Shown: piece by piece, positions 6,001-64,000 of the stretch
Layout of the letters: each line of letters opens with the position of its first letter
Position numbering within the stretch: the stretch's first letter is position 1
Notes under the pieces: model-generated
What the model was told of the DNA's origin: nothing
Databases searched by the model: none
Seen by the model: only the letters and a program-made list of their open reading frames with translations
Program-made: the position numbers and the translations under genes
Assembly: GCA_905178155.1 (NCBI GenBank)
Contig: CAJINV010000020.1
Location: 744,001 to 808,000, forward strand
Direction of reading: 5' to 3'
Origin: Amoebophrya sp. A120
Lineage: Eukaryota; Protista; Dinoflagellata
Length of the DNA stretch: 64,000 nt

Positions 6001-9000
6001 GAGCGCGGTGGCGGAGACCGGGCAGGTGTCTTGTGCAGAGTATGCGCACTGCAAAGGGATCTGGAAGTGGGGAGATTATGAAAGCCAGGCTGCCGCGATC
6101 CAGGCCTGCGTGGACGACGGACCTTTTTATGACGTGCACACCCGCGTGTTCGTTGAGGTAGCTGGTTCGGCCGGGATTCATGGCAAGGACTGCACGACAA
6201 TTCGGGATGAGGAATTGGACTCTGCGCCCATCAAAGACACGCAAAGCGAAGTACGCTGCGAGAACCACACTCCCCGGGACTCGGCGTACCAGTGGGTGTG
6301 GCCGGCTGGCCTGGCATCGGAGGGGAATCGAGAAACCGCGTGCAGAGACGATTCCACTTACAACACCGACTTGGACTCCGAGATTTTGCAAGTTTTCGAG
6401 TGCGTGGATGACAGCTTGGTGGCGAACACCGGGCGCGACTGCGCTACGTTAGAAACGGACACTGTCGACGAGCGGGAGAGCTTCTCCTGCTGGCACCACA
6501 TCGTGTGGGACTGTGTGGGGCAGTGGGAGCACACGGATACCACGCAGAGTCCCCCGGTGCTCACCGCAATGACGCCGGCTGAGGCCGAGGCCAAATGCAA
6601 GGAAAGCGTAGACAACTTTGACGACGAGTACGAGTTGACGTTCCACGTAACCCAGCCGCAGCACACCACCGGCACGAGCTGCGCGATAGCAGCGGGCGTA
6701 GTTCCGAACGGGGACGGAGACATCGTGAAGACGGTACTGTGTTCAGAGCACACTGAACGCGACTGCACGGGCCAGTGGGTCTGGGAAATCGACGGGCCCA
6801 CCTCGGAGGAGGACGCGCAGGATAAGTGCAAAGAGGACGATGTACCGATCAACACCATATATGAGCAAACGTTCGAGAAGCTGCTGGAGAACGCAAACGG
6901 AGGCGACAGCTGTGACACGGTGGAGGCGGCTATGGTAGGGTCGAAAATAATCGTGGACTGCAACGATCACAAGCCGGTGCATTGCAAGGGAGAGTGGAGG
7001 TACGACCCTCTGAGTGTTGGAGCTCTCCTGGAAAAGGCAAGTGTGGAGAACTACTGCAGCGTTGGCAACGAGGAATTGTATGATGACGTATTTGCCGCGG
7101 AAGCCTGGTACTCAATTTCCACCGAGGTCCGAAATGGCGGAGATAATTGCGCGACCGTGCAGAGCAACGCCGACCGGCCGGCCGACGTTAAGTGCGAGGA
7201 TTTCACGCCAGTGGACTGCGCGGGGGAGTACCAGTGGAAGATCAACGACACCCACTTTGTCCAAGACCGGTCCCGTATGGATGTGTCAGGATCGAAATCG
7301 ACAAAGTTGAAATAATTTGTGATGCATAAAACGGATGCCAGTTGGAGCCCACTTTCCAAGCGGCGCATGACAAATTTGGGTAGAGCCGAAATCCAGTTTG
7401 TAGTGCTGTTTGGGTAAGAAAGACGCCTTTTGTCATGCTGCTTTAGCAGCTCTATGTCTACCCCTGAACAGGCTTACAATCGGCCTCCCTTGCCTACTCT
7501 GCAAAACAGGCATTTTGTGGGTTGCATTTTATGCATCACAAACTATTTCAACTTTGATGATTTCAAACCTGACACATCCATATCCCGGGTCGTGCAGATG
7601 TGTGCCAACAGCGAGCTGGCGGAAAGCGCGATGATCCCGCACGTTTTTGTGGAACGGGAGTGGACCATCGGGGCGTTGAGCGGAACCGGGAACAGGAACG
7701 GCGGTAAGAGCTGCAGTGCCTTGGAATCGGAGCTGAATCAGGAACCGGATCTCGCCTGCGTCGACAATCAAAAAGAGCCCTGCGTGATTGAGTGGCAGTG
7801 GCCGGCAGCGTACGGAAACTTCGCGGCAGTGGAAGAATACTGCCGCCTAGACACCACCGACGCATCAACAAGCGTGGAGCAGATATGGGTCCAGACCGAA
7901 GCGGCAGAGAATGGCGGAATGACGTGCGAACAGGTTGCACTCGATCAGATTGGGACCCAGAAACAAACCGTTTACTGCCTGGCCTACAAGCCGACTCCCT
8001 GCGTGGGTAGTTGGGGGTGGGGGGATGACCACCCGACTTCCGCACTGGCGGCGGTGGACCAATGCAAAGCAAATGACTACGCAGACGGCCTGAACAACGA
8101 GATCTACCAGCAAACTTTCGCCGTGTCCGCGAACCCTACAAACGGGGGGAGCGATTGTGCCACAGTGGCGGATGCTGCCCAATTCGACCCCCCCAAAGAA
8201 GTCCGGTGCGCCGATTACGTCCCCTGTGTGGGGACCTGGGACTGGCCCAGCCCCTACGGAGACAAAACACAAGACGAGGTCATCCAGGAGGCGTGTTTGA
8301 CTGGTACTCACGATCCTTCAAAAGAGATCAAGCAAGTTTTCACCGTTTCGCGGGAAAACGGGACTCTGGCCGATCCGACCTGCGAGCGTACGAGGATGAA
8401 AATTGTTCTTGTCTGCGAAATCAATTCGTGCGAGGATGGAACAACGTGTAGAAGAAGCTGCGAACAAATTACATGTTTTGGTTGCTTGTTAAAGTCGTTT
8501 TTTGCCATGCGCGCATTTCTACTATGTCGTTGTGGACCGACCTTTGTGCAGTTGTGATATCATGCGTGTTGTAGTGCCGATGTTTTCATTCGGATTCGTG
8601 GTACACTTTGATTGACGCAGTGTTACTATGCGTGCCTTTTATTTTGATTCCCAAAGTCACGACGATGTCACCGATCTGAGAACAATTTTCATCCTGATAA
8701 AGAAGTTGCGAACCGATACATGGAACGAAGACATGCGGAAGGTGGATTGTGAGTCGCACAGAAACTGTGCGGGGGAGCTTCGCTGGGTTTCTAATCTTGA
8801 GGGCGCAACCGAGTTTGACAATCATGCCGCCGCAGTGCTGCACTGTCAAGGCTTGTTCGATGACTCTAACTTGGGTAATCTCCCGGATCCAGCGGATCTT
8901 CCGAATTTAAAGAGAACCTTTCACGTTCTGGCGGACGCAGCCGGCGAAGGTGGCAGCTGCGCGGACCTGCAGCTTGAGCTGGAAAGAGCCGCAGATACGT

Positions 9001-12000
9001 CGAGCCACGAGGATGTGAGCTGTGCCGACTATCAGCCGTGCGTGGGATCCTGGGACTGGCCCGATGAAGTGGGCGGTACGAAGACCGGCGCCATCGACAA
9101 GTGTCTGAATGACGCGGATTACGCGAGCCAAACGGTCAGCCGAGTCTGGGTGGAAACCAGGGCTAACGGACCGATGGGAAGCAGTTGCGCAGATGTGAAG
9201 GCGGAACTCAAAACCCAAATCGAGACGAACCAGAACTTCGCGGTCGACTGCAGCAACCACAAGCACTGCTATCCCGCACAGAAGTACACCCATAGCACCA
9301 GAAAAAACAGATAAAGAGTCAAACAATATACAATTTGTGTTGCGTGACAATCTTTTTCAGTGCCTCCTTAACTCGATTGTTAACAGGGAAAAGAGCGCAT
9401 GTGCCGCTTATACATAGCTGTATTTAACAAGAATATTTGGATGAGCATGCCAGAAAGTCACCACACCATCACCTCTGTCTTGTAGTATTCGACGCATTAG
9501 CGCTAGCGTAGTTCTTCTGACGCTATATCAAAATCACTGTTGTACTTCTTGTAAGAACCGTGAGAGACATATTTCTATCCTGGGGCTATTAGTGTGCTAC
9601 TTTTCTGGAGGATAAGTGCGCCAAGATGTTCATTTGGAGAGAGAATTCTAATGAAGTCGGGTTCCTCACCCGTCAAGCTGCCATTGACGGATGTTTGGCG
9701 CTGGATGCAAATGACAGCGTTGCGGCGGGAAATTTGGTTCTCGCCCGACAGTGGGGTACCCAAGACGGTTCTTTAGGGAACCATCTGGGAGCTGGGACGA
9801 AATGCTGGGATCTAAAAGAAGAGTTACTAGCGGCGCAGCCACCGCCAGGTGGCCCCGTTACTTGCAGAAATTTCTTGCCCTGCAAAATCAAGTGGATTTG
9901 GAGCCCCGACCACGCAAACGAGAATGACGCGATCGACACGTGTTTGGCGAACCCGAGTCTGTCGACGAGCGGCTACGTGATCCAACAAAATTCTACCATT
10001 ACGCGCACACGTGGAGCTAATGCCGACAGCAGTATCGCGTGCGTAGAGGAGAACACACGCAGCGAGGTAAACTGTGCCGACCACTTATGACATTGAACAA
10101 GCATTACCCTCTTTCTCTTTCCCGGAATAGACAAGCAGGCGTGCGTCTTTTCTTTCTATGAACCGTTGATTATGTATGTCTACGACCAGCTACAACACTA
10201 GGCGAAAGCATGTGTTGCAACGTCACAGTTTGACATTGAGTTTCGAACTGAGGAGACGGTTCATGGTTCCATGTTCTCGTGCAGGTCCTGGTCAAGAAAA
10301 AATAAAGAACAGATCTGCAAGAACATCCACTTCATGATTCTAGCACACATAAGTATCCGTCAGCCTCAGGGAACCAGCAGAGCAAGACCAAGAGCATTTC
10401 TTGTTTTGCTTTTGTTGCACTGACTATTCAGGGACGAGGACCGAGTTAGAGGGTGTTTTTCAATGTGACAGTGGCGGCACTGCGTTGGGTCCCTGAAGTG
10501 GGTGTACCAGAGTTCCTCATTGGATACCTTCGCCGATGCAGAGGCGTATTGCCGTCTCGCCGACGCGCGCCACGCGGCAGCAGGAGGATCTTCCGGGGGT
10601 AGCAGCGCCGGGGTCGGGGAGGTGCTTATCAGACAGTTCGTGAAGCAGACCGACGAGGTGGGTAGCTTCGGCACCTCGTGCGCCACGCTCGAAAGCGACC
10701 TGGTCGCCCAGAGCAACTCTGCGTCGGAAGGCGACGTGACTTGTACGGAGTACCTCCCCTGCCAGGGCGAGTGGGCGTGGATCGACTACGCCAACGAGGA
10801 AGCCGCGAGAGAGGCCTGTCTCGCACTGAGCGACGGTGAGAAAGACACAACCGTTTACCGGCAGACCTTCAGGCAAACCCGACCGGCGGGAACCAAAGGC
10901 ACCCCTTGCGACGCGGTCGAGGCCGCTTTGCCCGGCCGCGGAGAGGTGCCCTGCAGTGGGCAACGCGATTGCGACGGCTACTTGCAGTGGGGCGGCAGTT
11001 TCACGGATAGGCAGGACGCGGAGCAGTTTTGTCACGACCAGGCGGCGCTGTGGGTCGCAGCCGGTAGCGACCCGTCCAATTTTTCCATGCTACCTACTCA
11101 AACACGCACCTTCGTGGTGACGGTGTCAGCACTGGGCAGTGGGTTAACGTGTGCAGCAAAAGAACAGCAGCTGATCACGGATTCAAATGGAGACGTCCTC
11201 TGCACGTACTACATTCCCTGCCAGGGCGTTTGGAAGTGGGGACCATACCTGACCGTCGAGGCGGCGGAGGAAGGCTGCAGAGACGACGCGCCAGCAAACT
11301 TCGACGACATTTACGAGCGTGACTTTACTATCACAAACAACCCCGCCGCAAACGGGAAGAGCTGCTCTGTGGTCCAAGAAGCACAGCTGGCGGAAAAATC
11401 GGAGACGGAACGAAACACCCCTGTCGTCAAGTGTAAGCACTTCACCCCCGTAGACTGCGAGGTCGAGTGGTATTGGCCGGATGGTCAGGAAACGAAAGAA
11501 AAACGCGAAGCTTACTGTAGGGCGAGCGCAGTAAAGGAAGACGAAGTGCTCAAGCAGCTGTGGCGTGAGGTCGCCCCACCCCTCAACAACGGCGCCAGCT
11601 GCGAGGATGTTGCGAACTCAGACCAGCAAGCTGGCGTGCCCGCGACCGAGGACTGCCACCCTTTTCACGTCGACTGCGAGGGCAGCTTCCAATGGGCCCC
11701 GGACCACGACTCGGCACAGGCGGCCCAGGCCGCGTGCGCGGCGAGCAAGGGGATGCAAGACGTCGTGGTGCGGCAGAACTGGACGGTGACCACGGAACCG
11801 ACCCGATTCGGGAAGACCTGCGAAGTTGCCGAGCAAGAGACGACGGCGACCCCGTTATCCGTGGGGTGCAACGACTTCATCCCGCTTGATTGCCTTGGAC
11901 AGTGGGTCTGGCCCGCCGGCGGGACGTTCGACGAGCAGGCGGCGATTGACCAGTGCGAAAAGGACCCCAGCCTCGGGTTGGACAGCGAGGTCGCGCAAAT

Positions 12001-13962
12001 TTTCCAGATCACGCGCGAGGCCCGGCGACCACCAGACTACACCGGCCCTCTGGAGACGTGCGCGGAACTCCAGGCGCGCACGAAGGAAACCGACCAAAAG
12101 ATTGTCCGGTGCGCTAACCACATCCTGGTCGACTGCGAGGGGCATTGGGAACCGTATAAGACGCTTGCCGAGGTGGAAACTGCGTGCAACGACCCCGCCA
12201 GCGTCCCGCACATCGCCGGCAATTTCGCTTTGCAGTTCGTCGTGGAGCAGGAGGGTCTGAACGCCGGGAAAACGTGCGAACATTTGGCTAACGAGACCAA
12301 CTTTCTGCTGCCCGACACGTTTTTCTTCAACACGGAAGATGGTGCGGCCGCAACACGGCAGCTGATGCGGACCACGACGGGAGAGGACGAGGACAAAATG
12401 GTGCTGATCAACGAACAGATCCAGTGTGCGGACTTCATCACGACGACTCCTGCTGGTGGAGGCACCACCAGCACTACTACCAAAGCGCCAGAAGAAACGG
12501 AAGAAGAAACCACCGAGGAGGAAGGTGGCGTGCCCATGGTGGTGATCGTGGTGCTGATCGTGGGGCCGCTGGTACTTCTAGGTCTGGGCAGCTTGATCGC
12601 GCTGGTGGTGTGGAAGTTGGTGCCGCACGACTACAGCCTGCTGGAGGACGACGGCCTACTACTTCCGGAAAATATGGATCCGGAGCAGGGAGGAGCGGAC
12701 AAGGACAAAGATGGCGTAGCCAACAACTACGTGCACCCGGGCGAGCACATCATCCAGGTGCGCAAGTCGGCCGCCACACGGGAGCGGGAGGAGCAGGCGC
12801 AAATCGCCATGCTGCAGGCGGAGCCGAACAGTGCAAACCGGTACACGGAGCAGGCGTTGTTTAGTATCGCCGAGTCGGGGCAGCTGCCATATGGGTCCTC
12901 GTCCGCGGAACCGGTCACCAAGGACTCCTCCGGGGAGCCGCACGACGAGTTTTTTTCCAAACACGACCACGTAGGGGACCCGATCGACAGCCGGGCCACG
13001 GATAACACAACCATGTTCAACATATCACACAGAAAAAAACTGGCAGGTCATATTTGTAATGCAAAAATAAACTGACAAAACAATAACAATTTGTATTGCA
13101 TATCCTAAGTAGCATGCTATGAGGCCGCCCATGACAGATTTTGCTGTGTATTTATTTTTGCATTACAAATATGCCCTGCCAGCATTTTGCTGTGGGATAC
13201 AACATCCCCAAAGCCTACGTGCGGTCCGGGTCCCACAACCACGGCGGGGCTCCGAAGCTTCCCCACGAGCACCTGGACTACACCTCACCGGAGAGCGACG
13301 GCGGGGAACAAGATGGTAGTGCACCTTCGTCGGCACCGGTGTCGGGGGCGGTAGGGAGGAAGAAGAAGAAGAAGGTAGTCGGGGGTGGGGACACTACTAC
13401 GCCAGGGGCGGCCGGTGCTGGTACCAAGAAGAAAAAGAAGAAGGCCGCTGCATTTGGGGCAAATACAACGAACGCATCAGACGACGGCCCGACGGATGAC
13501 GCGGAAACGTCGAACCCTACCGGAGATGAGCACGACACGGCCTCCTCGCACAAACAAGAGGGTGGGAGAAAAAGCAAAAAACCGGGCGTGAAGAGGAAAA
13601 AACCGGCCGCGAAGGACGGCTCCCCCTCGGACACTGGTGCAGCACCCGCCAAGAAAAAGGCGGCGGGCTTGGGCGGTTTGAAGAAAAAGAGGAAGGCCGA
13701 GGGCGACGCGGTCGCAATAGTAGACACGACCGGGGCCGTCGTGGTGGGGAGGGAAGATAGTGAGGAGGATGTTGCTCTGGAGCAGCTCCTACCAATAGAC
13801 TCGGGAGATGAAGTATCGTCGGAGCAGTTGTCCGAGGACGGGTCCTCGTCCATAGATGAAGATACCGATAGGAGTGCAGGCCAAAGAACTAGCAGCTCCG
13901 ATCAAGGTGAGACAGATGAAGAGGACAGACCTTTCTTAAGAAAAAGGCCGTTAGCGCCGTAG
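2..13962 (+). CDS. Giant Cys/Trp-rich type I membrane protein with divergent thrombospondin-1-like (TSR) repeats; 5' end outside the window; at least ~4,130 aa after removing 5 TIR introns
   Basis: ORFs 11-7315, 7430-8557, 8628-9314, 9626-10090, 10502-13075 and 13141-13962 join in frame on removing 312, 316, 350, 390 and 182 nt. Dozens of VDCxGxWxW...C...F...NGGxxC units. TM helix VPMVVIVVLIVGPLVLLGLGSLIALVVWKL (~12530-12620), then a charged cytoplasmic tail. Confidence 0.85.
2237..3420 (+). repeat. In-frame 246-bp (82-aa) tandem repeat, about 4.7 copies
   Basis: Units start at 2237, 2483, 2729, 2975 and 3221 (VDCVGVSTWTL...). The central units look identical at nucleotide level. Confidence 0.97.
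7276..7582. mobile_element. TIR introner family A, 307 bp, TSD TCCCG
   Basis: TATGGATGTGTCAGG...CCTGACACATCCATA flanked by TCCCG (7271-7275, 7583-7587). Removing 312 nt gives QDRSR|VVQMC. Confidence 0.95.
8389..8699. mobile_element. Older TIR introner, 311 bp, TSD decayed (GAGCG/AAGAA)
   Basis: TACGAGGATGAAAATTGTTCT...AGAACAATTTTCATCCTGATA. Element+5 = 316 nt matches the frame offset between ORFs 7430 and 8628. Confidence 0.8.
9270..9614. mobile_element. Older TIR introner, 345 bp, TSD ACTGC/AGTGC
   Basis: Degenerate TIR TATCCCGCACAGAAGTA.../...TACTTTTCTGGAGGATA. Removing 350 nt gives NHKHC|AKMFIW. Confidence 0.8.
10086..10470. mobile_element. Degenerate TIR introner, ~385 bp, TSD not recognisable
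   Basis: TATGACATTGAACAAGCATTACCCT...AGGGTGTTTTTCAATGTGACA. Removing 390 nt restores the C-x5-C repeat spacing (CADxRHC). Confidence 0.65.
13023..13199. mobile_element. TIR introner, 177 bp, TSD CAACA
   Basis: ~50-bp imperfect TIR (TATCACACAG...TGGCAGGTCATATTTGTAATGCAAAAATAAA). Removing 182 nt gives TMFNI|PKAYV. Confidence 0.92.
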
Positions 13963-15127
13963 TACTTTTCTTATCAGAAGCATACTGGAAGAACAGGAGT
14001 GGTCACTGTTTCTCTCATTGTGTCATAGGCCATGCTTTACTTACAGCACTGTGTGCGCAGCTCTTGAAATTGTTCTTGCCTTTAGATATTCAAGAAATAT
14101 ATGCCAGTACGAAATGGAAATCCCCAGAATCATGATAGCATTCAGTACCCCTAATTCGGAACAAGCATTTTGATTTGCCTATTAGACATTTTGATTTTTA
14201 CACTTTACACGTGTCCATTTTGATTTTACGCACAACATCAAGCTCTGTACTTTTTTTCAAAATCCAATGCATATACATTCTGCACAAAATCGAGATTATT
14301 TGTTACAAAGAGACAAAGAATATTTGAACTTAAAGTTTACCAGGTTACAGGCAACGCAGTTGTTTTATTTTTGATACTTGTTTACATCATTAGCGCGACT
14401 TTTTTTTTCCAATTTTTTTTTTTCATTCATTTATGCTTTAGAAATTTTCTCTTTTTATTTTTTTAGGATCATTCATTACGTAGTTCGACATGTGTTACAT
14501 CGTGGTCAATTTCCGTTCACATACGAAAAACGCGACCCAACGGGCGCGCCTATCCCATTAAAAATTAACATTAAGTAATTTCATTTCACAATTTACATAC
14601 AATTAGCGTGACGTTTTCAACATTTCAGTCAAAGTGAAACCCGCTCCCGAAAAAGTGTTTTGATAAAAAGCCCCCCCCGATGGAAAAACAAGGCCCAGAA
14701 AGTAACCCTAAGGAATTTCGTCTCATCTCTACTTCGAGCAAACGGGAGGTTAGTCTGTCTCACTCAGGACCAGCTCCAGCGCAGCAAGATGCAGCGCAGC
14801 AAGATGCAGCGCAGCTGTGCCGTTCTCCCGAATATTTTCTATTCCGAATATAACCACTTTGAACTATTGGCCAACGATCGCAGAGTTGAGTAGAGAGAAA
14901 CAGAAACAGAAAATTGAAAAAGAAAATACGAACTCAGTATTAAAGCGTTAAGGTAAGAAGCGCGCGAGGAGTGTGAACCTAGTACAAGAAGATTCCATAT
15001 GCGCAACAGCCGGTGCAGGTCTGTACCTGATCAAAAGGGCGGAAGAAGTCGCAAACCGCATAAGAGGGTCGAAAAGCATGAAAATTTGAACGCACGACCA
15101 TGAAGACTAAGTACATATGTGCAGTAA

Positions 15128-38608: not shown

Positions 38609-38621
38609 AAAGGTGAAGTGA

Positions 38622-38885
38622 TATCAAATGCAAAAATGTCATCTGGGTCTGGAAGAGTGCATGTTTGTCATGCTTGTCTGGCATGACTTCTAAATCTGTC
38701 ATGCGCGTTAGGTTACCCAAGACAGAGCCCCACTTTGCTGTCATGCAGAAACACAGTTTGTCAGGCAGAATAGGCAGCACCTAGAAGCTCAAAAGCTTGG
38801 CATGCTGAGCCAGCACTTGTGGCCTCTTCATGATACGCCACCCAGCATCACAAGTTTCCAGACCCAGACACTTTCGCAATCCATA
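38622..38885. mobile_element. Family B element, 264 bp, TSD AGTGA, in the presumed 3' UTR
   Basis: TATCAAATGCAAAAATGTCATCTGGGTCTGGAAG...TTCCAGACCCAGACACTTTCGCAATCCATA; starts 13 bp after the stop codon. Confidence 0.92.
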
Positions 38886-51200: not shown

Positions 51201-54200
51201 AACTTCAACGTAGTTGTGGCCAACCCCAACCAGCATACGTCTCGGCGAGGTCCAGTTTACGCACGCAATGCAACGAACAGCAGACCACGTCGATGAACAC
51301 TTCTGTAGGTGATCTTGCAGCAGGAGCTCCTGCGGAGGAAGGTCACACAGCTACAGCTGCGAGGACTACAGCTACGGCCGAGTTCACTTCTGCGCGTGAC
51401 CCCACGGCAGGTTCTTTGGCAGTAGAAGGTGGGCGCGACACGCCGCAGCAGGAGCTCCTTGGCGCCGGCGCGATGAAAAATAGCTTGTTCCCAAATATGG
51501 TTTTTGCTAGTTCTTGTAAGACGAAGACCAAAGGCCCTCCGCCCGGTTTGTCGCTGACTACGGCATCTGACGAAGATCCTGCTGCGGTTGAAGCGGTAGA
51601 TCCAGTGGCAGAAGAGCAGGAGCTGCGCCATGATCTTCATCACGATACTAGTACCGTGGCGACTCGAAAAATCACAGCAGGAGCATCAACCGAGGAGGAT
51701 GCTGACCACGTTACGCCCGTTCGCAAATGGAGTAAGTTGTCCGCCGCAGCGCCGGAATTTGTGCCGGCTTCCTCCAGCTCCCGGCATTCGAAAGCGTCCA
51801 TACCGGAGCTCGACCGCTTTCGAGCTTCCTTCGGCGACAGCACAGGAAAAGAACACATTTTGCTCGAACATCAAACGCAGAGCCTCAACAATGTTGGGGG
51901 TTCTAGCAGTACAACGTCTTGTGCGACGTCGGCGCCGCCAGAGGCGGCTCTTGCGGGCACCGCCGGAGCAGGAGGTAAGTCGAGTTGTACTATGACGAAT
52001 ACTGCTGGCCTGACGTTCAATAACATCCAAAATGCGCAACACAGTGCCGAGCTCGCGGAGCGGATCAAAATCGCCATTGGCAGTAAGGCCCCGCAGGACG
52101 CCCACATCCTCGCAGAAACTTTCATTCGCGACGACGAGGACGGTAGGCTGCTGCGGGCGTTCCTGCACGAAGAAGTGCGGTCTTACTACAAAAAGGAACT
52201 AGTAGTAGAGACATCAAATCAAAATCATGTTGACCTTGACCCCACTTCGACGAGTGCGCAAATGACTGCAGCGAACCCGAAGAACCAGCAACAGTCTCTC
52301 CTGCAAAAAATGCTGCAAACTAACTCTAGCGCTGGAACATCAAGAACGTCGACCACGGCGACACCTGATTCCGAAGGACCGATTTTGCCCGTCCCCGATT
52401 CGGTTTTCAATGCCTTGGTGAAGAAAATCGCACCGCAACGTCCCTCGTGTCTGTTCGACCGGTTGTTTCCGCACGTTCTCTTGGAAATCTTGGACCTCCG
52501 GGAGGGCTGCTTTGCCGTGAAAATGACGAAGCGGCAGAAGAAGATCCTCTCCGAAGTGAAGGCCACGAATCGCGTTCCCTCGCTAAACACGCGACTGATT
52601 TCCGTCGTGGGGGTCGACCGCGTCGGCAGCTGCGTGCGCGGCACCGACATCTCCACGTCCGATGTGGACTTCCGGATCCGCTACGAAGTCAACCCCTCGC
52701 ACCTACCAAATCAGAACTGGTACGTACAACCTGGGAGCACGCCGCACCTGCAGTTGCTAGAACGGATCCGGAAGATGCTTGATAAGGTACGACATATTTT
52801 TTTTGTTAGTTCGGCGGTTATGAAAAAGAAGTTTCGGTTTATTTGTTGTCGGCAGCCACGAATCGGAATCTAAATCAGCAACATCAAAAGCCTAGTACCC
52901 CTCAACGCCTAAGTGCCAACAATTTTGAACCCAGGCTCTGAAGCATACCACGTTGGACAGCGTGTGCAATTTGGTGTGGAAATCCGACGCCTGCCTGCAA
53001 GTGAGCTTTCCGAAAGTACACATGCACACGGAGGCCACCGTGCAGCAGCGGATTGCGCAGCCCAGCCGAAGCAAGCATTTGGTCTATGATGTGTGGTTTG
53101 TACCTACCAACCTCCCACCGGAGCCGGACCCAGCGGCACCCGGCACCGCGGAGGGTGTGGGAGCTGCAGAGGACCACCAGGCCGCGTCAATCGGTGCCTC
53201 CGCGAAGGCGAAACCTGCTGCCAAGCGCAAACAGAAGAAAACCGGAAAAGCCGCCGCCGAGGCACAGGTGGCCCGCGCGGACCGGGTTGGTGGAGACAAT
53301 AACACCAGCCTTGGCATGCAGGTGCTCGCCACTTTGCAGGCCCAGCCCGCCGCGGCGCTGCTGGACCCCTACCAACAAGTGGCTGCTGCTGCGGCCAGTT
53401 ACTACGGCGGCGGGCATTTCCCCACCCTGATTGGAAAACCGGCCAGGGGATTCGACAATTGCATGGACGAATACAACCATCGTCCCGACGAATCTCCGCT
53501 CCCGACCGTGCAAGGCCTTGAGTTGCTGGAGCAGGGGCTGACCAGCTTTTTCCTGCACAAGGAGCCCTACCGCCACGTGGTCCGTCTGATCAAGTGGCAA
53601 TTTCAGGAATTTCTCGCGGCGCGAGCGCCCGTGACGAGTTGTGGGGAAATAAATCAAAATGGAGGGCCGCGACACACGAGGGGAACCAGAACTACTGGTG
53701 GGCCAGCGACTTCGGAAGTGGATGTGGAGAATCAGCAATCTGACCAAGACTGCCGGAGCCGTCGCGGGCTCCCGGGATTGTATGTCGAATGCGCGGTCTA
53801 CAGTGTAGTCATGATGCTCGGCGAGCAGGATTGGCTGAAGCACAACCAAGAAGTTCTGGAACATGCAAAGAAAGCGGACTCGGAGTCTTACGCAGCTGCA
53901 AATAGGACGACACCAGTGAACAAGCTGAATGGAAAGGATCAAGGCAGCAAAAAGACCGCGAACAACAGCTCTACTTCCAGCGAAAATTATTCGAGAGGTT
54001 CGCCCGAGAGGGCCGCCGCGGCCCCAAAGCAGGAAGAGCCAAGAACGTCCCTGGTTTTGGTCGAACGTGCGCCGATTTTTGCGCAATCGTACGAGGACGT
54101 TGCGTATCAAATGCAAAAATGTCTGGGTCTGGAAGAGTGTAGACTTGTCATGCAGATTTTCCATGAAGCGCGAGGTCTGGAATGCGGGACCTAGCATGAC

Positions 54201-57200
54201 AGACTCTGCGAGGTCTCTGCCATGCCTATTCTGCATGAGAAACTCCGTTCCAACTTGGTCAAAAGTGGAGCTTTTGGCACTCATGCAACACAGATTTTTG
54301 CATGCTTCAGATTTACCATGACAAGCTGCAATCTTCCAGACCCAGACACTTTTGCAATTCATATTGCGTGGGCCCCGCGGGGACCGTTGCCGAAACTGGG
54401 GGAACTGAATTTTTATCAAGATAGTTTGCTGAAGACCAAGGAAGACCAAAACCGCAGCTACGAGGTCTTATTCGAAAAGTTCGTCGCGAAAGAAGTTGGG
54501 CTAGGCACGACGATGTTGCCTTTTCCAGGAGAACAGCAGCTGCAGCCGCACAGATCGTCCGACAACGGTGGCACAACTAGAACAACCCCGATGCAAACTA
54601 CGGACACTAGGAACGATCGAAAAGAGAAAGGCCCTGCTGGTGCCTCATCAAACAAGAATCTTCATGATGACCAGCGCGGTAATGATATTAGCCATCTGAA
54701 GACGCTGCAAATAAATAACTTCACCACCGACCACCAAAAACCCGGCACGAGCGGTTGCCTTCCTCCCGCCCACCCCCCACCGCCACCTCCTAATGCAGGC
54801 AACTACAACGTGAACGTGGTGGACGTGGACCAGAGCAGCTCCACCTCTTGCCCGAATCGCGGTCCGCCGCAAAGACCCGCACCCATTATGAAGCTCTCAC
54901 CCGAACGGCAAAAACTGCACCAGAATGTCGCAGGAGACTGGATCGGAACCGTTCCCGACCGGGAAGTCAAGCCAGAAACGAGACTAGCGCAAACTACTTC
55001 AGTACAATCACAGCTGCAGACCGGCGCAATTCATCCTGGGGGAGGACCAGGACCAACCGCTGGAGAACAACAAGTTGACAACTCACACTCAGCGGCACGA
55101 CCTCACAGCAACAGCACAACTCAAGTTGTGAAAAAACGACAGAAAATCAAGATAATTGATCCTCCCTCCGCCTTTCGTGTGTACTTGCTGACTTTGTTGT
55201 ATGGGAGTGTCGGGATTGAAATCGACAAAGTTGAAATAATTTGCAATGCATAAAATGGATGAAAATTGTGACCCAGTTTCCAAGTGGCGCATGACAAATT
55301 CGGGTAGAGCCGAAATCCAGTCTGTCATGCTGTTTGGGTAAGGAAGACGCCTTTTGTCATGCTACTTTAGTAGCTCAGTTCCTCCCCCTTAATAACAGGC
55401 TTGCAATCTGCCTCACTTGCCTACTCTGCAAGACAGGCACTTTGTGGGCTGCATTTTATGCATGACAAACTACTTATTTCAACTCTGACAATTTCAATCC
55501 TTACACTCCCATATGTTGCTGATCGGCGGCGGGATGCACGTCGAGGAGGACTTTGTTGAGGACAGCGGGGAGTCGAGGTACACATTTGAAGCGAAAAGTA
55601 CACCACTTGGGAGTTTGCTCCTGGCGTTCATCGACATGCACGCTAGCTCTCCGGTCTGGAAACTCGCCAATGAAGAGGAAGGAATGTGGGCGGTATCCGT
55701 ATCTATGACGCGCAGTTTTTTGCTTTTTTTCTCGTAGTTTCCCTTTTGATTACTTAGTTCCACGCGATCAACTTTTTTTGGCGCAGTGTCAGCACGACCC
55801 TACGCTTACATCTTTACGTTTCTCGTTCTCGTCCTCTAGGTTGTAACCACGAACATTAAAAAATCAGGTAAGCTATGAAGTTGCGCAGATGCTCCGCGAC
55901 GTGACTCGCAACCTGCACGAGTTCACGGGCTACAACACGGACCACCCGCCGCAGACCATTCGCCAGCGGCTGGGGGACCTGGCCCGGAGTCCGAGTCTGG
56001 AGTGTTGGCGCACGGAGATTTGCGGGCCGCTGCTGTCCCAGCTTTCCACAGACGAGTCGCTGCGGCTGCTGTACCAGCAGTTCGGCGTTTTGTCCCCCGA
56101 CGCGGTAGTCCAAATCGAGGACGAGGTTCGGTCGCTGTTCCGCACGGTGTTGGACTTCTTCTACGACAAAAACTGCCTCGTGCGGATCTTCGGATCGGTG
56201 GAAAACGCGACCGCAACACGGGGGTCGGACGTGGACTGCGGGTTTGTGCTGTCCAAGGAAATGTACCAGAAGTACCTGCATCGGGTGCAGGTGGAACGAA
56301 AAAACGCATTGGCTTCCGGGGACTCGTCACTGCTTTCTGAATGTACTATTACGTGCACATTACGGATTTTTATGCGACTGTTCATTTTTGTTGTGGCATA
56401 TTGAAGATTTTTGTATAAAAACGACATGATACGTTTGTACACGGTCTGTTATGGATGCTTTTACTACTTTTATCCTTCTTTTTATTTTAAAAACAAAATC
56501 CTATCAGCCGGCCTGGCCCGCCTGGTAAAGTGCGAAGCGTTGCAGGACCTGCAAAAGTTCATGCAGAAGTTGGACAGCGACGGCAAGATGCTGGATCTGG
56601 AACTCGTGCTGCAAGCCCGCGTCCCGATTGTGAAGTGCCAGATCCACGAGAGCATCCGGAAAACGCTCCCCTGCATGCTCGCGCACGGGATCAGCGGCTT
56701 TGACATCTCCGTTCTGGTAGAAAACGAGTTTTTCGTCCTGCAGAACTCCGCTCTGGTCCGTTCGGTTCTGCTTGCGGACGAGCGGTACCGCATTTTGGCG
56801 GTATTAGTGAAAAAGTACGCCAAAGCGGCCCAGATCTGCTCCGCGTACGAGGGAACCTTGAGCAGCTACTCGTACGCATTACTGGTGTTGCACTTCCTGC
56901 ACTGTCGGGAAAAGCAGGAACAAGCGGATTGTAACTATTTGTTGTCAACATCTTGTTCCTCACCTTCGGAGCTGCAATTTGGCACCTGTAGTTCTTCGTC
57001 ATCTACGACACCGAGGAAAATCGCCTCGGTTATCGCTCCAGACCAGGATTTGTTCTACGCAGGAACAGGTGGAACTAATTTCCCCAGTCCCCCGGCGGCG
57101 CCCAATACAGATGCAGTTAGTACTGCTAGTTGTACAACCAGTCAGCAACAGCAAACTGTTGTGGAAAAGGCTCTACTGCGATTATCCGAGAACAGCATGT

Positions 57201-58738
57201 CTTACGAAACACTCGCGACGCTCCGCACTGGATCAGCGCCACCGAAGGTGCACGTGACCGATTTGTTGGACGACGAGGACGGCTTCCTCGCTGGTAAAAT
57301 GAAGCACAGCAACTACCAAAGCAACTCGGCGTCGAAATTGACAAACGCGAGTTCTTGCGGGGTACCAACAACCATCGTAGACGCTAGTATAGCTGGAAGT
57401 TGTACAACTGGCAACATCGATGATTATTGCCACGGATCCGACCCGTCTGTGTCGGCGAACTCTTCGCGAAATGGTTCGAAAGCGAGCGGGACCATGCAGA
57501 ATTCCCTGACCTGTTCCACCACAGCGACGAAAAGTTCCACGATGTCTAGTACTAACACTCTACCCTCGTGGTTGCAGGGGAACCTGAGTGCGGCGCGCTC
57601 CTTGGTGATCAACGATAATATTACCGGGGACGATGTTAATATAATCGGCGCAAACAGCAATAGTAGTTCGTCTACGGCGGGCATCTTCAACCACCTACAG
57701 CTACACCACGCTGCTTCCTCTCCAGTAGGAGCGGGAACGGGAGGACGAGAAATGTGTAGTAGAGCGGCTACAAAGCACACAAACGGGGACCACAATACCG
57801 GGCAAAACGAAGCAGGCGTCTGCGGTCCAAGTTCTCCAAACGAGAAGATGTTGCACCACCAGCTTCCAAAGCGGCCAAGTGCGAAAATCACGAATCTCGA
57901 GACGCTGAACAAATCCGTCACGGTGGAACAGTTGTTCACCGAGTTATGTTGAGAGTGCACAACTACAACCTCTCCGCCTCATTTGTGATGCAAAATCCCA
58001 AATCCAAATCGAGTTGTGTTGGGCCCTTGTGGCGCGGTTTGCATTTACACACTCCGGACGAGGCTTCCCAAGGAAGCAGTACTAGAATCTGCGCATGAAG
58101 AACAAGAACATGTCATGTTCAGGCTCCACAACTACATGTGCAGGTTTTTGTATTGCATTGCTGCTCATGCCAACATACAAATGAGGGGCACGAGGGGATG
58201 AAGTTTTGCACTGTCATACGAGTTTCTCGAGTACTACACGACCCTGGACTACAAAAACAAAGTGATCGGCGTGACCGGCATTCGGAACCGCCGTCCGGAG
58301 GACGGCACGCGGTTTCATTTTTTGATCGAAGACCCCTTTGAGCCGGCGATCCTGGAAAACCCCCGCGCGGGGAGACGGTTGCTCGGCATGATGGACGGCT
58401 CCACGTTTGAGCACACGGGGAACAATCGGGTTCCGGGCTACCCGCGCTTTCTCGACGCTTTGCTGCGGGCGAAAATGCACCTGCTCCACTGCGCCAAGGC
58501 GAAGGAGGCGAGGCGGGAAGCGGAACTGGGGCAGGCCCTGCGGGAAGAGGATAGTAAGGGCACGAAGAAATCATCATCATCCTCCGGAGGAATAACCGGA
58601 AGTGCGAACTTGTTTTCGGCTGAAGTATCAAACGGCGGCACGACGAACATGAACCACGGTAGTCCTACTTTTGTTGACCCAGCACAGTTCCAGTTATCTG
58701 CCATGGACGCTTCGGTGCTTACGATGTTTCACTTGTGA
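45290..58738 (+). CDS. Very large (~3,200-3,300 aa) Cid1/TUT/Trf4-family terminal nucleotidyltransferase with two NTase motifs and long disordered regions
   Basis: IFGSVENATATRGSDVDC, ARVPIVK, FDIS, VKKYAK, GTLSSYSYALLVLHFL, EFLEYYTTLDY, LIEDPFE; second motif VGSCVRGTDISTSDVDF at 52622. ORFs 45290, 48367, 49172, 52953, 54222, 55513, 55889, 56411 and 58262 are frame-compatible. The single-gene model is inferred. Confidence 0.8.
46238..47245. mobile_element. Putative long-TSD insert 1 (1008 bp), (G)TATCACAGG...TAAC, weak asymmetric IR
   Basis: Bounded by the 36-bp repeats; CATACGGAAAAAAAAAACTTTCC (~46278) loosely complements the right end CGAATTTTTTGTTTTTTCGAATA. Confidence 0.65.
47282..48348. 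mobile_element. Putative long-TSD insert 2 (1067 bp), TATAACAGG...TAAC, asymmetric 35-bp IR
   Basis: IR 47301-47335 pairs with 48312-48346 (about 3 mismatches); the left IR is 19 bp internal and the right IR is 2 bp from the end. Confidence 0.75.
54105..54363. mobile_element. TIR introner family B, 259 bp, TSD TTGCG
   Basis: TATCAAATGCAAAAATGTCTGGGTCTGGAAG...CTTCCAGACCCAGACACTTTTGCAATTCATA. Removing 264 nt gives YEDVA|WAPRG. Confidence 0.95.
55200..55513. mobile_element. TIR introner family A, 314 bp, TSD TGTTG
   Basis: TATGGGAGTGTCGGGATTGAAAT...ATTTCAATCCTTACACTCCCATA. Removing 319 nt gives LLTLL|LIGGG. Confidence 0.95.
57945..58218. mobile_element. TIR introner, 274 bp, TSD CGAGT
   Basis: TATGTTGAGAGTGCACAACT...AGTTTTGCACTGTCATA. 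Removing 279 nt restores the PAP-associated motif LFTEF|LEYY. Confidence 0.9.
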
Positions 58739-60273: not shown

Positions 60274-63200
60274 ATGATGCCGCCTTTCAATCCTAATCAG
60301 CAGAGTCACCAGGCGACGGGCACTATGAAATGCAAAAGCATCGTGCTAGTATAAATTTAAATTGCATGACAAATTCCCTCAGCATGAAAAATAAAATTTG
60401 TAATGCGGATTTAGGTAAGGAGGGAGATTTGTGATGCATGATTGCGATTACTACGAGTGCGATACTTTTGCACAGGATAGGCACGAACAGCTCGGGGTTG
60501 TCCCAGTTCGCGCCCATGAGCAGGCCCATTGCCTTATTGAGAGGAAAAATCCCCCCTCCCCATATTGAAAACGTATCCGTCTGAAAATTTGTGATGCGCA
60601 TTTGTGACCTCAAATCCTGTCTGTCTTGCAAGAAGGCAAGTCCAGAGAGCGCCCCGCACTTTCCAGGCGGTTCGTGATGCTGTTGGGCTTAGAGCATACA
60701 CATTTGCCATGCTAGGCGCCTACGTCAAAACCTCTCGACTGAGGCTTGGCATATGCCTGCAGTCCTCTCCAGCAAGACAAATCTGATTTTTGTACGGAAA
60801 TCCAGCATCAGAAACTTCGTTTCGATATGGGGAGGGGGGATTTTTCCTTTTAATATCCCTCCGGAGGACCCTCGCCACCCTTTTTGCCTTCTGATGACAT
60901 ACCCCCGCTGCACCAACAGAACATGCCGGGCGTTGTCTCTGGGTTTGGTCTACCATCAGCTGCACCACCAGGTACTAGAAGTTGTACAGGCGTTTATTTC
61001 TTTAATTATCAGTACGACTCCGAAAACAAATATGCACTCGCCCCTTCGTTCACGTTCTACAACGACATCTAAGTCTAATGCGAGAAAAAGAAAAATAGAG
61101 GTTGCAGCTTCGTTTTGTTCCAGATGCTGATCATGCTTGCCAGGCACTATAATCGTCTCGATTGTAGTGTTACGACTGCGACAAAAATCTGATCAATCGC
61201 TGTGATATTTTTTTTACAGGTTTTAACCCCACCAGTGTTTGCGGCGCGGCTCCTCCTGCGGCTGCAACGCCCGCTGCCCATGGGGCGGGACGGCAGCGCG
61301 GTACAGTGGCTGTGAACATCATGAATAAGGACAAACCCAAACGAACTCCTATGGAAGGATTTATGACAACCACCAAGTGGGGCGACGTTCCGTTTGCCGG
61401 CGATGTGGCAGACGCAGAGAGTGATGTTGAACAAGCGCTGAATAACATCAACGGCTTCGGACCGCAGCGAAGTGAGAGCAATAACTTCGAGCCCGAACAA
61501 CAGCAAATGAACGAGAACGCAAAAATTGGAGATCATCATCATCAGGGCTTGTGTGGTGCATTACCCGCTGGCACGACGCCGACCGCGCAGCAAGCTCGGG
61601 CACGATACCAAAGCGGGCAGCAAGAGCAGCAGTCCATCTTTCAGGAACAAGAAAATTTGAGCATGAACTTGAAACTGCAGCAGCAACAGCAGCAAATGAT
61701 GCAACGGCAACAGGAACAACTGGACCGACAGCGGCAACCGCAGGAGCCGCATTTTCAGCAGCAGAAGGCGCATCGGTTCAATGCGCAGCAGCAACAGAGG
61801 TTCCAATTTGACGACGATCAGCATTACGAGGACGGTGTCGCACCGGAACAGCTCATCTTCCAAATGCAGCAGCAGATGATGAAAAAGGACAAGGTTAAGC
61901 AGGAACTACGCGCTGAGGAGGAGGAGAACAATGGTCGGGGGCGGGGCCAAGGCCAGAAGCTGGAGAACAACATGACAAACATCAAGAACACCCTGAACCA
62001 AAACGAAAACCAGTTCGATCAATTCCGATCCTCGCAAATGAACCAAAATTTCAACAACTTCAACCACAATGGCAATTTCCACAAAAATTTCCGAATGTCC
62101 ACCACCTCCTCCGATGCCGCGGAGCAGGTGCACCTGTTGCAACAGAAGCCGAACCAAAACCTTGACCCGCACAGCCCCCCGTTCGTCGCACACCAGCAGT
62201 CTTTGCCCATGCGGCAATCGCAGCCGTTCCGCCCGCCCCAAGGCCTGCCCCGTGCGGCTGGTCCGCGGGAAAGTTTCGGCGTGCCGTGCGAACATAGTGG
62301 ACCGAGCCTGGGCAGCGGTCATGTGGGGGGACCCGGCAAGCAGGGCGGGGTGAATCAATCGCCGGCTAATGCGGATTTGATGAGTCCGCAGTTGGAACTC
62401 GGTATGCGTATGCAGCAGGAGCAGCAGCAGCAGCAAGGTAAAGGCTTCCTCAATGGAGGTGGAGGACCTGTTACTAAGTGGAACTTTCTAGGAATGAGGA
62501 AATTTTGAAAAAATTGCCCCCCCTTCGAATTCTCTTCCGAAAGCAGCAGCTCTTCGTAGCTGTGTTTGGCTGGCGTGGCGCGCCAGCATTTGTTTGCTGT
62601 ATTCGAAAATGGAAGCGGGAAGCGACTGTGTCAGAGTTCGGACGCATTGCCGCGCAGTGAAATCACCAAAGCAGGCAGGCGGCTTTTCGGGTGCCACTCA
62701 CCTCGATCGCCAACTAGCCATCGCCGGAGGCTCAGCACACACCTACAAAGCCGCGCTTCATCTGAATAACGGCCGCGATCTCTACATGTGCATCGCAGTG
62801 AGAGCACCGCGCTAAGGTGGCAGGTCTTTGAGGTCTCTGGGCCTACTCTACCGAACAGCAGCTCGCCGGCAATCGCCTAGTGGGGCTTCCAACCCAAGGC
62901 GGCAGCCCTGGAAGGGGCCAATGGGGTCGGGCGCGTGGCCTGGCCGGCTCGAGGAGTTGCAGAAACATTTGAAAAGAATGGCGGAGGACTACCGCGGCGC
63001 CCTCAAGTGCCTCGGCCGGGTTTTGGCGGGGTGCCCCAACAAAGGTCGCGCCCGAGGGCTCAGCCCCGCTCTGCTTTTCTTGGTGTTTCTTGTATGCTTC
63101 AAATAGAGATCTGCGCTTTCCGCTCGTGATTCAATTTCCGAGGAAAATGGCGAAGGGGGGGGTCGCGGGGGGGCCGGAGGGGGCCTCGAGAGGGCCCCCA

Positions 63201-64000
63201 CTGAAGGGGGCAAAAATCGCCCCCGTGCCGTCGTGATTCAATTTCCGAGGAAAATGGCGAAGAGGGGGGGGGAAGGCAAGGGGGAGGGGCCGGGGGGCCC
63301 TGAGTTTTCCTCGGAAATTGAATCGCGACGGTATGGCACCGCTTTTTGCCTTGTTTCGAGGCGAATCTGGGAATTGGCCTGCTTTGCCGGCCTTCCCGGG
63401 CTCCCTTTTTTGGGTAGCGAGCGCGGCAACAAAACACGCCCAAAGCGAGGCCAAAACCATCACCATAGCACCGCGATTCAATTTCCGAGGAAAATTTCGA
63501 GTCCGGTGCGAAATGCCCTCAAGTTGGGAGCGGTAGGACCAAAGCCGCGGCAGGTTGGTTCACGGTGGGAAGCTGTCGACGGCGTGGGATATTTAGCGCG
63601 GTTCGGTAAGGGGGTATACCTGCCCCGGTTTAGCCGTTTTATTTGTAGCGCATGGCGTCCATGAGTAGGAAGGCCCATGGCGCTTGAGGTTTTGGCTCAA
63701 TGGCTTTGAGAATGATGCGGGTGTGTGGAGGCGCCACCATTCGGAGAGCAAGGCGCTGTCTTTTAGGTGCAGCCGCGATAAAGCCCATTATATGTGAGCC
63801 ACGGATGGCTCTCCAGGCTCGGCGACCACAGTTGTCCACGGGGCTCTGCGAGCTCGTCTCGCGCAGCGGTATTCGCAAATGGGCCGGCACAGGGCCGCGA
63901 CCTGATATCTCCACCTGCCTACTTTCACCTGGGGACTGAATTTTTTCGAATTTTCCTCATTCCTAGAAACTTCCACTTAGTACCTGTGAACAACCAGAAT
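60274..64000 (+). CDS. Q/N/P/G-rich low-complexity (prion-like) protein running off the 3' end of the window
   Basis: MMPPFNPNQQ start; two TIR introns, GT-AG intron 60972-61219, ORF 61306, then the 1.5-kb TIR element; resumes GPV|NNQN at 63988. Confidence 0.75.
60324..60479. mobile_element. TIR introner family D, 156 bp, TSD GGCAC; usable as GC-AG intron 60320-60480
   Basis: TATGAAATGCAAAAGCATCG...CGATACTTTTGCACAGGATA; inverted homolog of 29344-29508. Confidence 0.9.
60535..60855. mobile_element. TIR introner, 321 bp, TSD TGCCT/TCCCT
   Basis: TATTGAGAGGAAAAATCCCCCCTCCCCATATTGAAA...TTTCGATATGGGGAGGGGGGATTTTTCCTTTTAATA. Removing 326 nt links to ORF 60884. Confidence 0.92.
62472..63982. mobile_element. 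Large TIR element family L, 1511 bp, TSD CCTGT
   Basis: TACTAAGTGGAACTTTCTAGGAATGAGGAAA...TTTCCTCATTCCTAGAAACTTCCACTTAGTA; CCTGT at 62467-71 and 63983-87; ends homologous to 41154-42577. Confidence 0.95.

What the first reader, a model, noticed from the sequence alone, without database searches (positions are those of the whole stretch)
7271..63987. Invasion by TAY...RTA / 5-bp-TSD transposons that appear to be removed as non-canonical introns
Seen: 24 TIR elements from many families; 17 have perfect 5-bp TSDs, 4 have one mismatch, 3 are decayed. 23 lie in CDS and 1 in a 3' UTR; I recognised none between genes. For the 22 with an ORF on both sides, element+5 nt matches the frame offset, and conserved motifs in OAT and the nucleotidyltransferase are restored. 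Only 4 offer GT-AG or GC-AG within the TSD; the best alternatives elsewhere are GT-CC, GT-TT, GA-TT, GA-AC, GC-CC, GT-CA and similar. Known: IR/DR-flanked non-canonical introners were reported in Amoebophrya genomes (Farhat et al. 2021, from memory) with the excision mechanism unresolved. Inference: one transposase class plus a hairpin-guided, largely dinucleotide-independent splicing route. The termini recall IS3EU (TAY..RTA, 6-bp TSD) or 5-bp-TSD hAT elements.
Basis: partly seen in the sequence, partly recalled or inferred. Interest (0 to 1): 0.85.

Follow-up and report, generated by a model that had tools for sequence, protein, structure and literature searches.

The report
Transposon introns cut by fixed ruler
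Small jumping DNA elements sit inside the genes of a marine parasite and are cut out of its transcripts without the usual splice signals; the elements are already known, but wherever the cut can be pinned it falls one base before and four bases after the element's hairpin ends, a rule likely general and able to guide tests of the unknown machinery.

Summary
Observation confirmed: 24 TIR elements with 5-bp TSDs (17 perfect, 4 one-mismatch, 3 decayed), all exonic. The window is an Amoebophrya, and these match the published A120-type introners, so the elements are known. RNA-like contigs lack exactly element+5 nt for 15 of 18 elements in the stretches laid (9 direct, 6 by length; none contradicted). 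DNA-like contigs keep them. New: the three decayed TSDs fix the junction at 1 nt before the 5' TIR and 4 nt after the 3' TIR (intron = N-TAY...RTA-NNNN); two one-mismatch TSDs are compatible. The papers I read leave the border unresolved. In a related assembly, 233 of 335 TIR-defined elements have perfect 5-bp TSDs, both orientations are equally used, and G/AG are not enriched. Machinery is untested: a relaxed spliceosome reading N|UAY like the native G|UAY donor (~0.5), or a hairpin-guided nuclease-ligase of the Euglena/SOS type (~0.35). No transposase found; IS3EU's 6-bp TSD is not met. The scan reported similar spliced hairpin transposons in other genomes.

The parts
7276..7582 (+). TIR element, 307 bp, perfect TSD; family shared with 25665, 27689 (inverted), 34420, 55200; predicted intron 7275-7586 GT..CC
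   Evidence: joint 7270|7583 skips 312, 5 ambiguous; family
8389..8699 (+). TIR element, 311 bp, decayed TSD (3 mismatches); intron 8388-8703 GT..GA, register -1/+4 exact
   Evidence: joint 8387|8704, ambiguity 0, X1 and X3
9270..9614 (+). TIR element, 345 bp, TSD 1 mismatch; register limited to -3..0 (-1 gives CT..TG)
   Evidence: joint 9266|9617 skips 350, ambiguity 3
10086..10470 (+). TIR element, 385 bp, decayed TSD, 3' end ACA; intron 10085-10474 TT..GG, register -1/+4 exact
   Evidence: joint 10084|10475, ambiguity 0
13023..13199 (+). TIR element, 177 bp, perfect TSD; predicted AT..AC
   Evidence: joint 13017|13200 skips 182
16542..18255 (+). long TIR element, 1714 bp, perfect TSD, no Pfam hit in ORFs; predicted TT..AG
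   Evidence: host gene not covered by RNA contigs, removal untested
25353..25614 (+). TIR element, 262 bp, perfect TSD; family with 38301 and 54105 (inverted); predicted CT..GA
   Evidence: joint 25347|25615 skips 267 in X1, X3, X4
25665..25976 (+). TIR element, 312 bp, perfect TSD; predicted AT..CG
   Evidence: joint 25658|25976 skips 317
26360..26684 (+). TIR element, 325 bp, decayed TSD; intron 26359-26688 AT..CT, register -1/+4 exact; spanned whole by DNA-like contig
   Evidence: joint 26358|26689, ambiguity 0, X1, X3, X4; X5 piece 25953-27397
27368..27631 (+). TIR element, 264 bp, perfect TSD; family with 38622; predicted AT..CA
   Evidence: contig length arithmetic 2108 nt exact
27689..27995 (+). 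TIR element, 307 bp, perfect TSD, inverted relative to 7276/34420; predicted CT..GC
   Evidence: arithmetic; orientation
29344..29508 (+). TIR element, 165 bp, TSD 1 mismatch; register limited to -5..-1 (TT..TG at -1; GT-AG possible at -4)
   Evidence: X4 piece ends at 29338, arithmetic 838 exact; X5 piece 27971-29510 spans it
30317..30551 (+). TIR element, 235 bp, perfect TSD; predicted TT..CG
   Evidence: arithmetic
33186..33294 (+). palindromic TIR element, 109 bp, in ornithine aminotransferase; predicted GT..AA
   Evidence: A25 OAT aligns across it; joint not displayed
34420..34726 (+). TIR element, 307 bp, in OAT at the VLGK/ALSGG motif; GT..AG by chance under -1/+4
   Evidence: joint not displayed
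38301..38568 (+). TIR element, 268 bp, TSD 1 mismatch; GT..AG under -1/+4
   Evidence: arithmetic 1091 exact
38622..38885 (+). TIR element, 264 bp, in 3' UTR, also removed; predicted AT..TG
   Evidence: arithmetic and piece start 38885
41154..42577 (+). long TIR element, 1424 bp, TIR shared with 62472; removed as 1429 nt; predicted CT..TC
   Evidence: X4 record joins 41148 to 42578
54105..54363 (+). TIR element, 259 bp, perfect TSD; predicted GT..GC
55200..55513 (+). TIR element, 314 bp, perfect TSD; predicted GT..TT
57945..58218 (+). TIR element, 274 bp, perfect TSD; predicted TT..AG
60324..60479 (+). TIR element, 156 bp, perfect TSD; predicted CT..CA
60535..60855 (+). TIR element, 321 bp, TSD 1 mismatch; predicted TT..CC
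62472..63982 (+). long TIR element, 1511 bp, internal repeats, no Pfam hit; predicted TT..TG

Best explanation
These are Amoebophrya introners: non-coding TA..TA DNA transposons with a 5-bp target duplication that stay in the DNA and are cut from the RNA as element plus five bases, at a site one base before the 5' inverted repeat and four bases after the 3' one wherever it can be pinned, likely by a relaxed host spliceosome. Step 1 (inferred): an integrase-like DDE transposase encoded elsewhere inserts them into GC-rich exonic DNA in either orientation, duplicating 5 bp (abcde). Step 2 (shown for the majority form): the pre-mRNA is cut abcd|e-TAY...RTA-abcd|e, which restores the original sequence exactly. 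Step 3 (inferred): the 5' cut is read like the organism's own donor (G|UAY) with +1 set free. The fold-back brings the 3' end close and the acceptor is measured 4 nt from the stem end instead of found by AG. Odds by step: known introner class 0.95; RNA-level removal of element+5 0.97; fixed -1/+4 register for most copies 0.8; spliceosomal chemistry about 0.5.
For: RNA-like contigs that also skip GT-AG introns lack element+5 for 15 of 18 laid elements. DNA-like X5 runs into every element end in its listed pieces and spans 26360 and 29344 whole. 3 of 3 zero-ambiguity joints are -1/+4; 9270 and 29344 are compatible. At 10086 a CA..AG register and at 8389 a CG..AG register were available and not used. 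-1/+4 is the only one of six registers that puts T at +2 in every intron, aligning TAY with native donors (GTA in 11 of 14, GTAY in 8 of 14). All nine A120 motifs in Farhat Table S4 are NT-NN. Among 12 related elements with a changed terminal triplet, loss of the outermost base lies at the 3' end in 5 and at the donor end in at most 2, both of uncertain orientation and both then reading GC (post hoc, weak). A120 keeps 83 of 89 spliceosomal proteins and U2/U4/U5/U6 but no detected U1. Fritillaria is a precedent for a spliceosome adapted to TE-derived non-GT/AG introns.
Against: Register rests on 3 exact and 2 partial junctions from assembled contigs (2 samples, 1 study), which hide minor isoforms. 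A sequence-only register test on 35 mismatched TSDs was inconclusive. +1, -2 and -1 are all free (176 oriented elements: GT 59, AT 46, CT 44, TT 27; AG 19), which is more than the Fritillaria precedent (mostly AG-AC and AG-AT) and hard for two-step spliceosomal chemistry (own knowledge). Removal is orientation-independent (33:33 in the largest family), with unrelated interiors and no branch-site motif identified. No lariat data. No transposase found.
Confidence: 0.5

Rival explanations
1. Same elements and same -1/+4 rule, but removal is spliceosome-independent: a factor binds the TIR hairpin, an endonuclease makes staggered cuts 1 and 4 nt outside the stem, and an RTCB-type ligase joins the exons (Euglena nonconventional intron or precise SOS-splicing type).
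For: Terminal dinucleotides are free. Both orientations and a 3' UTR copy are removed. TIRs close a terminal stem in nearly all folds, with the outer pairs at P>0.6 in 16 of 21. The architecture spacer + inverted triplet + longer spacer mirrors Euglena's N3-CDG...CH'G-N5-6|R code. SOS splicing is ITR-pairing triggered, RTCB-dependent and acts on exonic and 3' UTR insertions. U1 was not detected in A120.
Against: No excess of G.U over A.C in transcript orientation (201:189 in loci, 27:29 in window), so no selection for RNA pairing was detected. SOS splicing is imprecise and leaves indels, whereas all 15 RNA-supported cases are exact. The register's match to the native GTAY donor would be coincidence (1 in 6). 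Element 10086 is cut in register although its outer pairs are poor.
Confidence: 0.35
2. Register is not fixed: the spliceosome or another machine uses several cut positions in the TSD (for example -4/+1, which gives A+N acceptors such as AG or AC), and -1/+4 is only common.
For: Published A120 annotations show AG about 26% and AC about 20% at 3' ends of large families (fam3), and Farhat describes borders as variable. 29344 is compatible with GT-AG at -4/+1. Only three exact junctions.
Against: With perfect TSDs all six registers give the same mRNA, so annotated ends reflect aligner choice (inference). All four elements able to exclude -4/+1 do so (8389, 9270, 10086, 26360), including one where it would have given AG.
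Confidence: 0.12
3. The RNA comes from alleles or a strain lacking the insertions, or the elements are excised from DNA (IES-like).
For: RNA-like and DNA-like runs are different samples, and their RNA status is the tool's guess. 624 joint rows were not displayed, so a rare DNA empty-site joint is not excluded.
Against: RNA contigs match the exons with 0 differences over about 8 kb of listed pieces, skip GT-AG introns, and cover genes unevenly. Old decayed elements are also missing, with chimeric junctions. DNA-like contigs hold the elements at flat depth of about 25-33.
Confidence: 0.03

Closest known systems
Amoebophrya sp. A120/A25 introner elements (Farhat et al. 2021, PMC7789003; Gozashti et al. 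2025, PMC12130899)
   Same: IR-ended, DR-flanked non-canonical introns; A120 IRs start TAT then an A-run; about 240 nt; 5-bp DR shown in Fig. S19 legend; A120 fam38 listed as '5-bp TSD, TA/TA termini', Ginger-like.
   Different: Those papers give DRs of 3-5 nt, automated TSD calls of 2-6 and variable or unknown borders. Here TSD is 5 and the resolved cut is fixed at -1/+4. Strain identity of the window was not established.
Euglena nonconventional introns (Nomura et al. 2025, PMC12501133)
   Same: MITE-like inverted ends, fixed spacers outside a complementary triplet, longer spacer on the 3' side, no GT-AG.
   Different: Euglena: N3-CDG...CH'G-N5-6 with a purine after the 3' site, released as circles. 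Here: N1-TAY...RTA-N4, no exon-base preference detected, product unknown.
SOS splicing (Zhao et al. 2025, PMC12779559)
   Same: DNA transposons removed from exons and 3' UTR at RNA level near ITRs, without GU-AG.
   Different: SOS is imprecise, leaves indels and recent exonic insertions are rare. Here removal is exact in the majority form and insertions are fixed by the thousand. AKAP17A/CAAP1/RTCB not tested.
Fritillaria borealis non-canonical introns (PMC13326754; review PMC11282704)
   Same: TIR/TSD-derived introns escaping GT/AG at genome scale; adapted U2 spliceosome.
   Different: Fritillaria keeps preferred ends (AG-AC, AG-AT); here +1, -2 and -1 follow background composition.
IS3EU/GingerRoot and Ginger2 DNA transposons (PMC10045372)
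   Same: TA..TA termini (IS3EU, GingerRoot); 4-5 bp TSD (Ginger2).
   Different: IS3EU/GingerRoot TSD usually 6 bp, here 5; no transposase available to classify.

Membership tests
Amoebophrya introner elements (A120 type) | Host is Amoebophrya | tested here: met
   OAT exon: highest identity hit listed is Amoebophrya sp. A25, 86% over 100%; strain not established
Amoebophrya introner elements (A120 type) | Terminal inverted repeats starting TAT with a downstream A-run | tested here: met
   TAT 19 / TAC 5 of 24 at 5' end, A-rich positions 11-15
Amoebophrya introner elements (A120 type) | 3-5 nt direct repeats at the boundaries | tested here: met
   5 bp: 17 of 24 perfect; 233 of 335 in related assembly
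Amoebophrya introner elements (A120 type) | Removed from RNA with non-GT-AG ends | tested here: met
   GT..GA, TT..GG, AT..CT at zero-ambiguity joints
Amoebophrya introner elements (A120 type) | Repeated, multi-family | tested here: met
   families in window; element depth 1e4-1e5 versus about 30 in X5
IS3EU / GingerRoot | TA..TA termini | tested here: met
   23 of 24; definition from PMC10045372
IS3EU / GingerRoot | TSD usually 6 bp | tested here: not met
   0 of 335 perfect at 6 bp, identity 0.25
IS3EU / GingerRoot | IS3/IS481-like DDE transposase | tested here: inconclusive
   no Pfam hit in 38 ORFs of the three long elements, no transposase hit in 133 ORFs of related loci; no whole genome held
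hAT (5-bp TSD subgroup, recalled) | hAT transposase and terminal motif | not tested
   no autonomous copy; only weak Dfam hAT5/hAT6 terminus hits for one A120 family in a published table
U2-type spliceosomal intron | GT/GC...AG ends | tested here: not met
   2 of 24 at -1/+4; 6 of 176 in related loci
U2-type spliceosomal intron | Lariat intermediate, U2/U6 dependence | not testable with these tools
   no raw reads of this strain were laid
Euglena nonconventional introns | N3-CDG...CH'G-N5-6|R signature | tested here: not met
   signature here N1-TAY...RTA-N4; first exon base at background
Euglena nonconventional introns | Released as full-length circles | not testable with these tools
   contigs only
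SOS splicing | Imprecise cuts with indels near ITRs | tested here: not met
   exact element+5 in 15 of 15 supported cases, majority form only
SOS splicing | Requires ITR pairing, AKAP17A, CAAP1, RTCB | not tested
   G.U/A.C test neutral; factors not searched, no genome held

The most novel reading that the evidence does not exclude
Amoebophrya has a precise, spliceosome-independent mRNA splicing pathway that measures 1 and 4 nt out from a UAY/RUA hairpin end. It therefore erases any TA..TA transposon together with exactly its 5-bp duplication, in either orientation and any sequence context, making tens of thousands of exonic insertions scarless.
Probability: 0.3. Interest if true: 0.9.

Novelty: already known. 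Interest (0 to 1): 0.55.

Why it matters
The elements are published, but how the majority of this parasite's introns are recognised is an open question: the founding paper leaves the borders unknown and later tables give inconsistent registers. A fixed N|TAY...RTA-NNNN| code turns a seemingly random set of dinucleotides into one rule. It would correct tens of thousands of annotated junctions, and it tells experimenters which ends, lariats or circles to look for. It would also be a second, convergent case beside Euglena of spacer-measured splicing whose spacers sum to the transposon's target duplication.

Tried and rejected
Whole-genome search for an autonomous copy: no genome held. Raw RNA runs: no listed holder is on record as RNA. 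X9 and X10 laid nothing, and X8 held only element-like reads at 90-99% identity, so retention rate, strand, lariats and minor isoforms were not measured. The joint table was swamped by paralogous repeats (15 of 639 rows shown), so 33186 and 34420 have no displayed joint. Register from mutation bias or codon likelihood on 35 oriented mismatched TSDs: inconclusive, all registers within 1.6 log units of -1/+4. Register from protein conservation in a SNF2 gene (L011): junction falls in a non-conserved stretch. RNA-pair selection (G.U versus A.C): none. Target-site or splice-site base preference: none at the five TSD positions. The codon-based orientation used for related loci mis-called 2 of 18 elements in Pfam-identified genes, which dilutes orientation tests. 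Transposase: no Pfam hit in 38 ORFs of the long elements, and no transposase among 133 ORFs of at least 230 aa in the related loci. Long TIR+TSD pairs listed in those loci were not followed up. Rfam: 0 matches in the window. DNA-level excision and empty-allele readings rejected (see rivals). IS3EU membership not filed because the TSD is 5 bp.
Full report
Observation. Scans for inverted termini recovered 24 elements of 109-1,714 bp: 17 with a perfect 5-bp flanking repeat, 4 with one mismatch and 3 decayed. Of 25 TAY..RTA pairs with TIR score >=33, 16 have a perfect 5-bp repeat, against 80 of 49,250 pairs overall. One element (10086) ends in ACA. All lie in exons, one of them in a 3' UTR; a BLAST with 336 elements found nothing elsewhere in the window. 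Removing element+5 restores reading frames, gives a stop-free 4,136-codon first gene, and lets A25 ornithine aminotransferase align across both OAT insertions.

Organism and prior art. An OAT exon is 86% identical to Amoebophrya sp. A25, the highest identity among the 120 hits listed of 2,636. The window is thus an Amoebophrya other than A25; the strain was not established. Farhat et al. 2021 (PMC7789003; seen: abstract, passages, sections 10, 11, 12, 16, supplement passages and part 3 of 5; figures not visible) describe these introners: IRs starting TAT in A120, DRs of 3-5 nt, no clear splice signature, border 'remains unknown', U1 not detected. Gozashti et al. 2025 (PMC12130899; seen: passages, 41 of 58 A120 rows of supplement file 8; files 13 and 14 not searched) class most A120 families as TIR DNA of unknown superfamily, with automated TSD calls of 2-6 and mixed registers. 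They note fam38 as Ginger-like with 5-bp TSD and TA/TA termini. The elements are therefore known.

RNA versus DNA. The tool lists X1, X3 (one sample) and X4 as guessed RNA. They behave as cDNA: they skip six GT-AG introns, cover genes unevenly and match exons without differences. They skip exactly element+5 at 7276, 8389, 9270, 10086, 13023, 25353, 25665 and 26360 and at 41154 (1,429 nt). That is 15 of the 18 elements in the two stretches laid. The DNA-like run X5, possibly the source of the assembly, runs into the element ends, spans 26360 and 29344 whole, and shows element depth of 1e4-1e5 against about 30; 624 joint rows were not shown.

The register. With identical TSD copies the cut can lie at six equivalent places. 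The three decayed TSDs remove the ambiguity: 8387|8704, 10084|10475 and 26358|26689 all start the intron one base before the TIR and end it four bases after (GT..GA, TT..GG, AT..CT). 9270 allows -3..0 and 29344 allows -5..-1; -1 is in both ranges. AG-ending registers available at 8389 and 10086 were not used. The intron is thus N-TAY...RTA-NNNN, and only 2 of 24 would be GT-AG. All nine predominant A120 motifs in Farhat's Table S4 have T at +2, as this predicts. The AG/AC excess in published tables is what an aligner would give by choosing the -4/+1 register (inference). I did not find this rule in the passages read from searches, or in PMC11282704 (passages, section 6), PMC11453091, PMC12005148 and PMC12787238 (passages). 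Figures of Farhat et al. and subscription papers were not visible. Against: n is 3 exact plus 2 partial, contigs show only the majority form, and a sequence-only test on 35 mismatched TSDs was inconclusive.

Related assembly. A 21-nt TIR pattern gave 144 loci (the 80 listed all from contigs with prefix JACKZZ01; about 408 kb read), with elements up to 94% identical to the window's and no orthologous flanks. Of 335 elements defined by TIR alone, 233 have a perfect 5-bp repeat, and lengths 2-4 and 6-9 are at background. Element+5 is not biased to multiples of three (129/88/118). In 176 elements oriented by a codon model (2 of 18 mis-called where Pfam gave the strand), +1 and the last two bases follow background, and GY-AG is available in any register in only 14. 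Families lie in both orientations (33:33, 10:18, 8:8, 6:7), and G.U and A.C mismatches are equal (201:189). Flanks are exon-like: 5 of 250 have GC below 42%, against 20% of background windows.

Mechanism. Shown: RNA-level, exact, orientation-independent removal with a TIR-anchored cut where resolvable. Inferred: the catalyst. For a relaxed spliceosome: the register aligns TAY with the native donor (GTA 11 of 14, GTAY 8 of 14), the outermost base is lost more often at the 3' than the donor end (5 versus at most 2, post hoc), no selection on pairing is seen, and Fritillaria is a precedent (PMC13326754, abstract). For a hairpin-guided nuclease-ligase: free terminal bases, stems closing the ends, the parallel with Euglena's spacer code (PMC12501133, abstract and discussion) and SOS splicing (PMC12779559, abstract and passages), though SOS is imprecise. 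I put these at 0.5 and 0.35.

Transposon class. TA..TA termini fit IS3EU/GingerRoot, but their TSD is usually 6 bp (PMC10045372, passages) and here it is 5. The three long elements have no Pfam hit in 38 ORFs, and 133 long ORFs of the related loci include no transposase. Class remains open; the Ginger-like A120 fam38 is the best published lead.

Verdict. Real and already described as a class. The added result is a fixed -1/+4 splice code that appears not to be in the papers read, and that makes the unresolved mechanism directly testable. Interest 0.55.

Noticed in passing
window 2-13962 +: Very large, cysteine-repeat, probably surface-anchored protein (over 4,136 aa, start upstream of window; five 246-nt tandem repeats at 2236-3519, hydrophobic segment near 12540-12620); no Pfam family above cut-off; expressed in X1/X3 and hardly in X4, suggesting stage specificity. 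All its five interruptions are introners.
   Followed up: partly
window 13200-16001: One RNA-like contig runs unbroken from the big gene through 2 kb past its stop into the next small ORF: long 3' UTR, read-through or assembly merge.
   Followed up: no
window 25863-25977 (run X8): A different strain's or organism's raw RNA library holds copies of two element families at 90-99% identity; 39 reads begin inside an element after an adaptor-like loose end (adaptor identity recalled) and 64 run past the element end into an unrelated flank. Could be a retained element, a partial cDNA or a splicing intermediate.
   Followed up: no
window 17310-18255: X1/X3 hold contigs of a near-identical paralogous copy (3-4 differences) of the 1.7-kb element with a different flank, so the long family is multi-copy and present in RNA.
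   Followed up: no
L041:3094-3724, L055:2991-4021, L062:4014-4985: Longer TIR pairs with perfect 5-bp repeats (631-1031 bp) in the related assembly, one inside RNA polymerase Rpb1; may be nested or long copies.
   Followed up: no
window 23220-23926: Small highly expressed gene with several CCHC zinc-knuckle-like motifs (seen in sequence), one GT-AG intron.
   Followed up: no
window 45290-58740: Long low-complexity gene ending in a poly(A)/TUTase-like nucleotidyltransferase region (weak PF22600 hit); a 30-nt stretch recurs at about 46200, 47250 and 48350.
   Followed up: partly
whole window: Every gene examined lies on the + strand, as in the unidirectional clusters reported for Amoebophrya.
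   Followed up: partly
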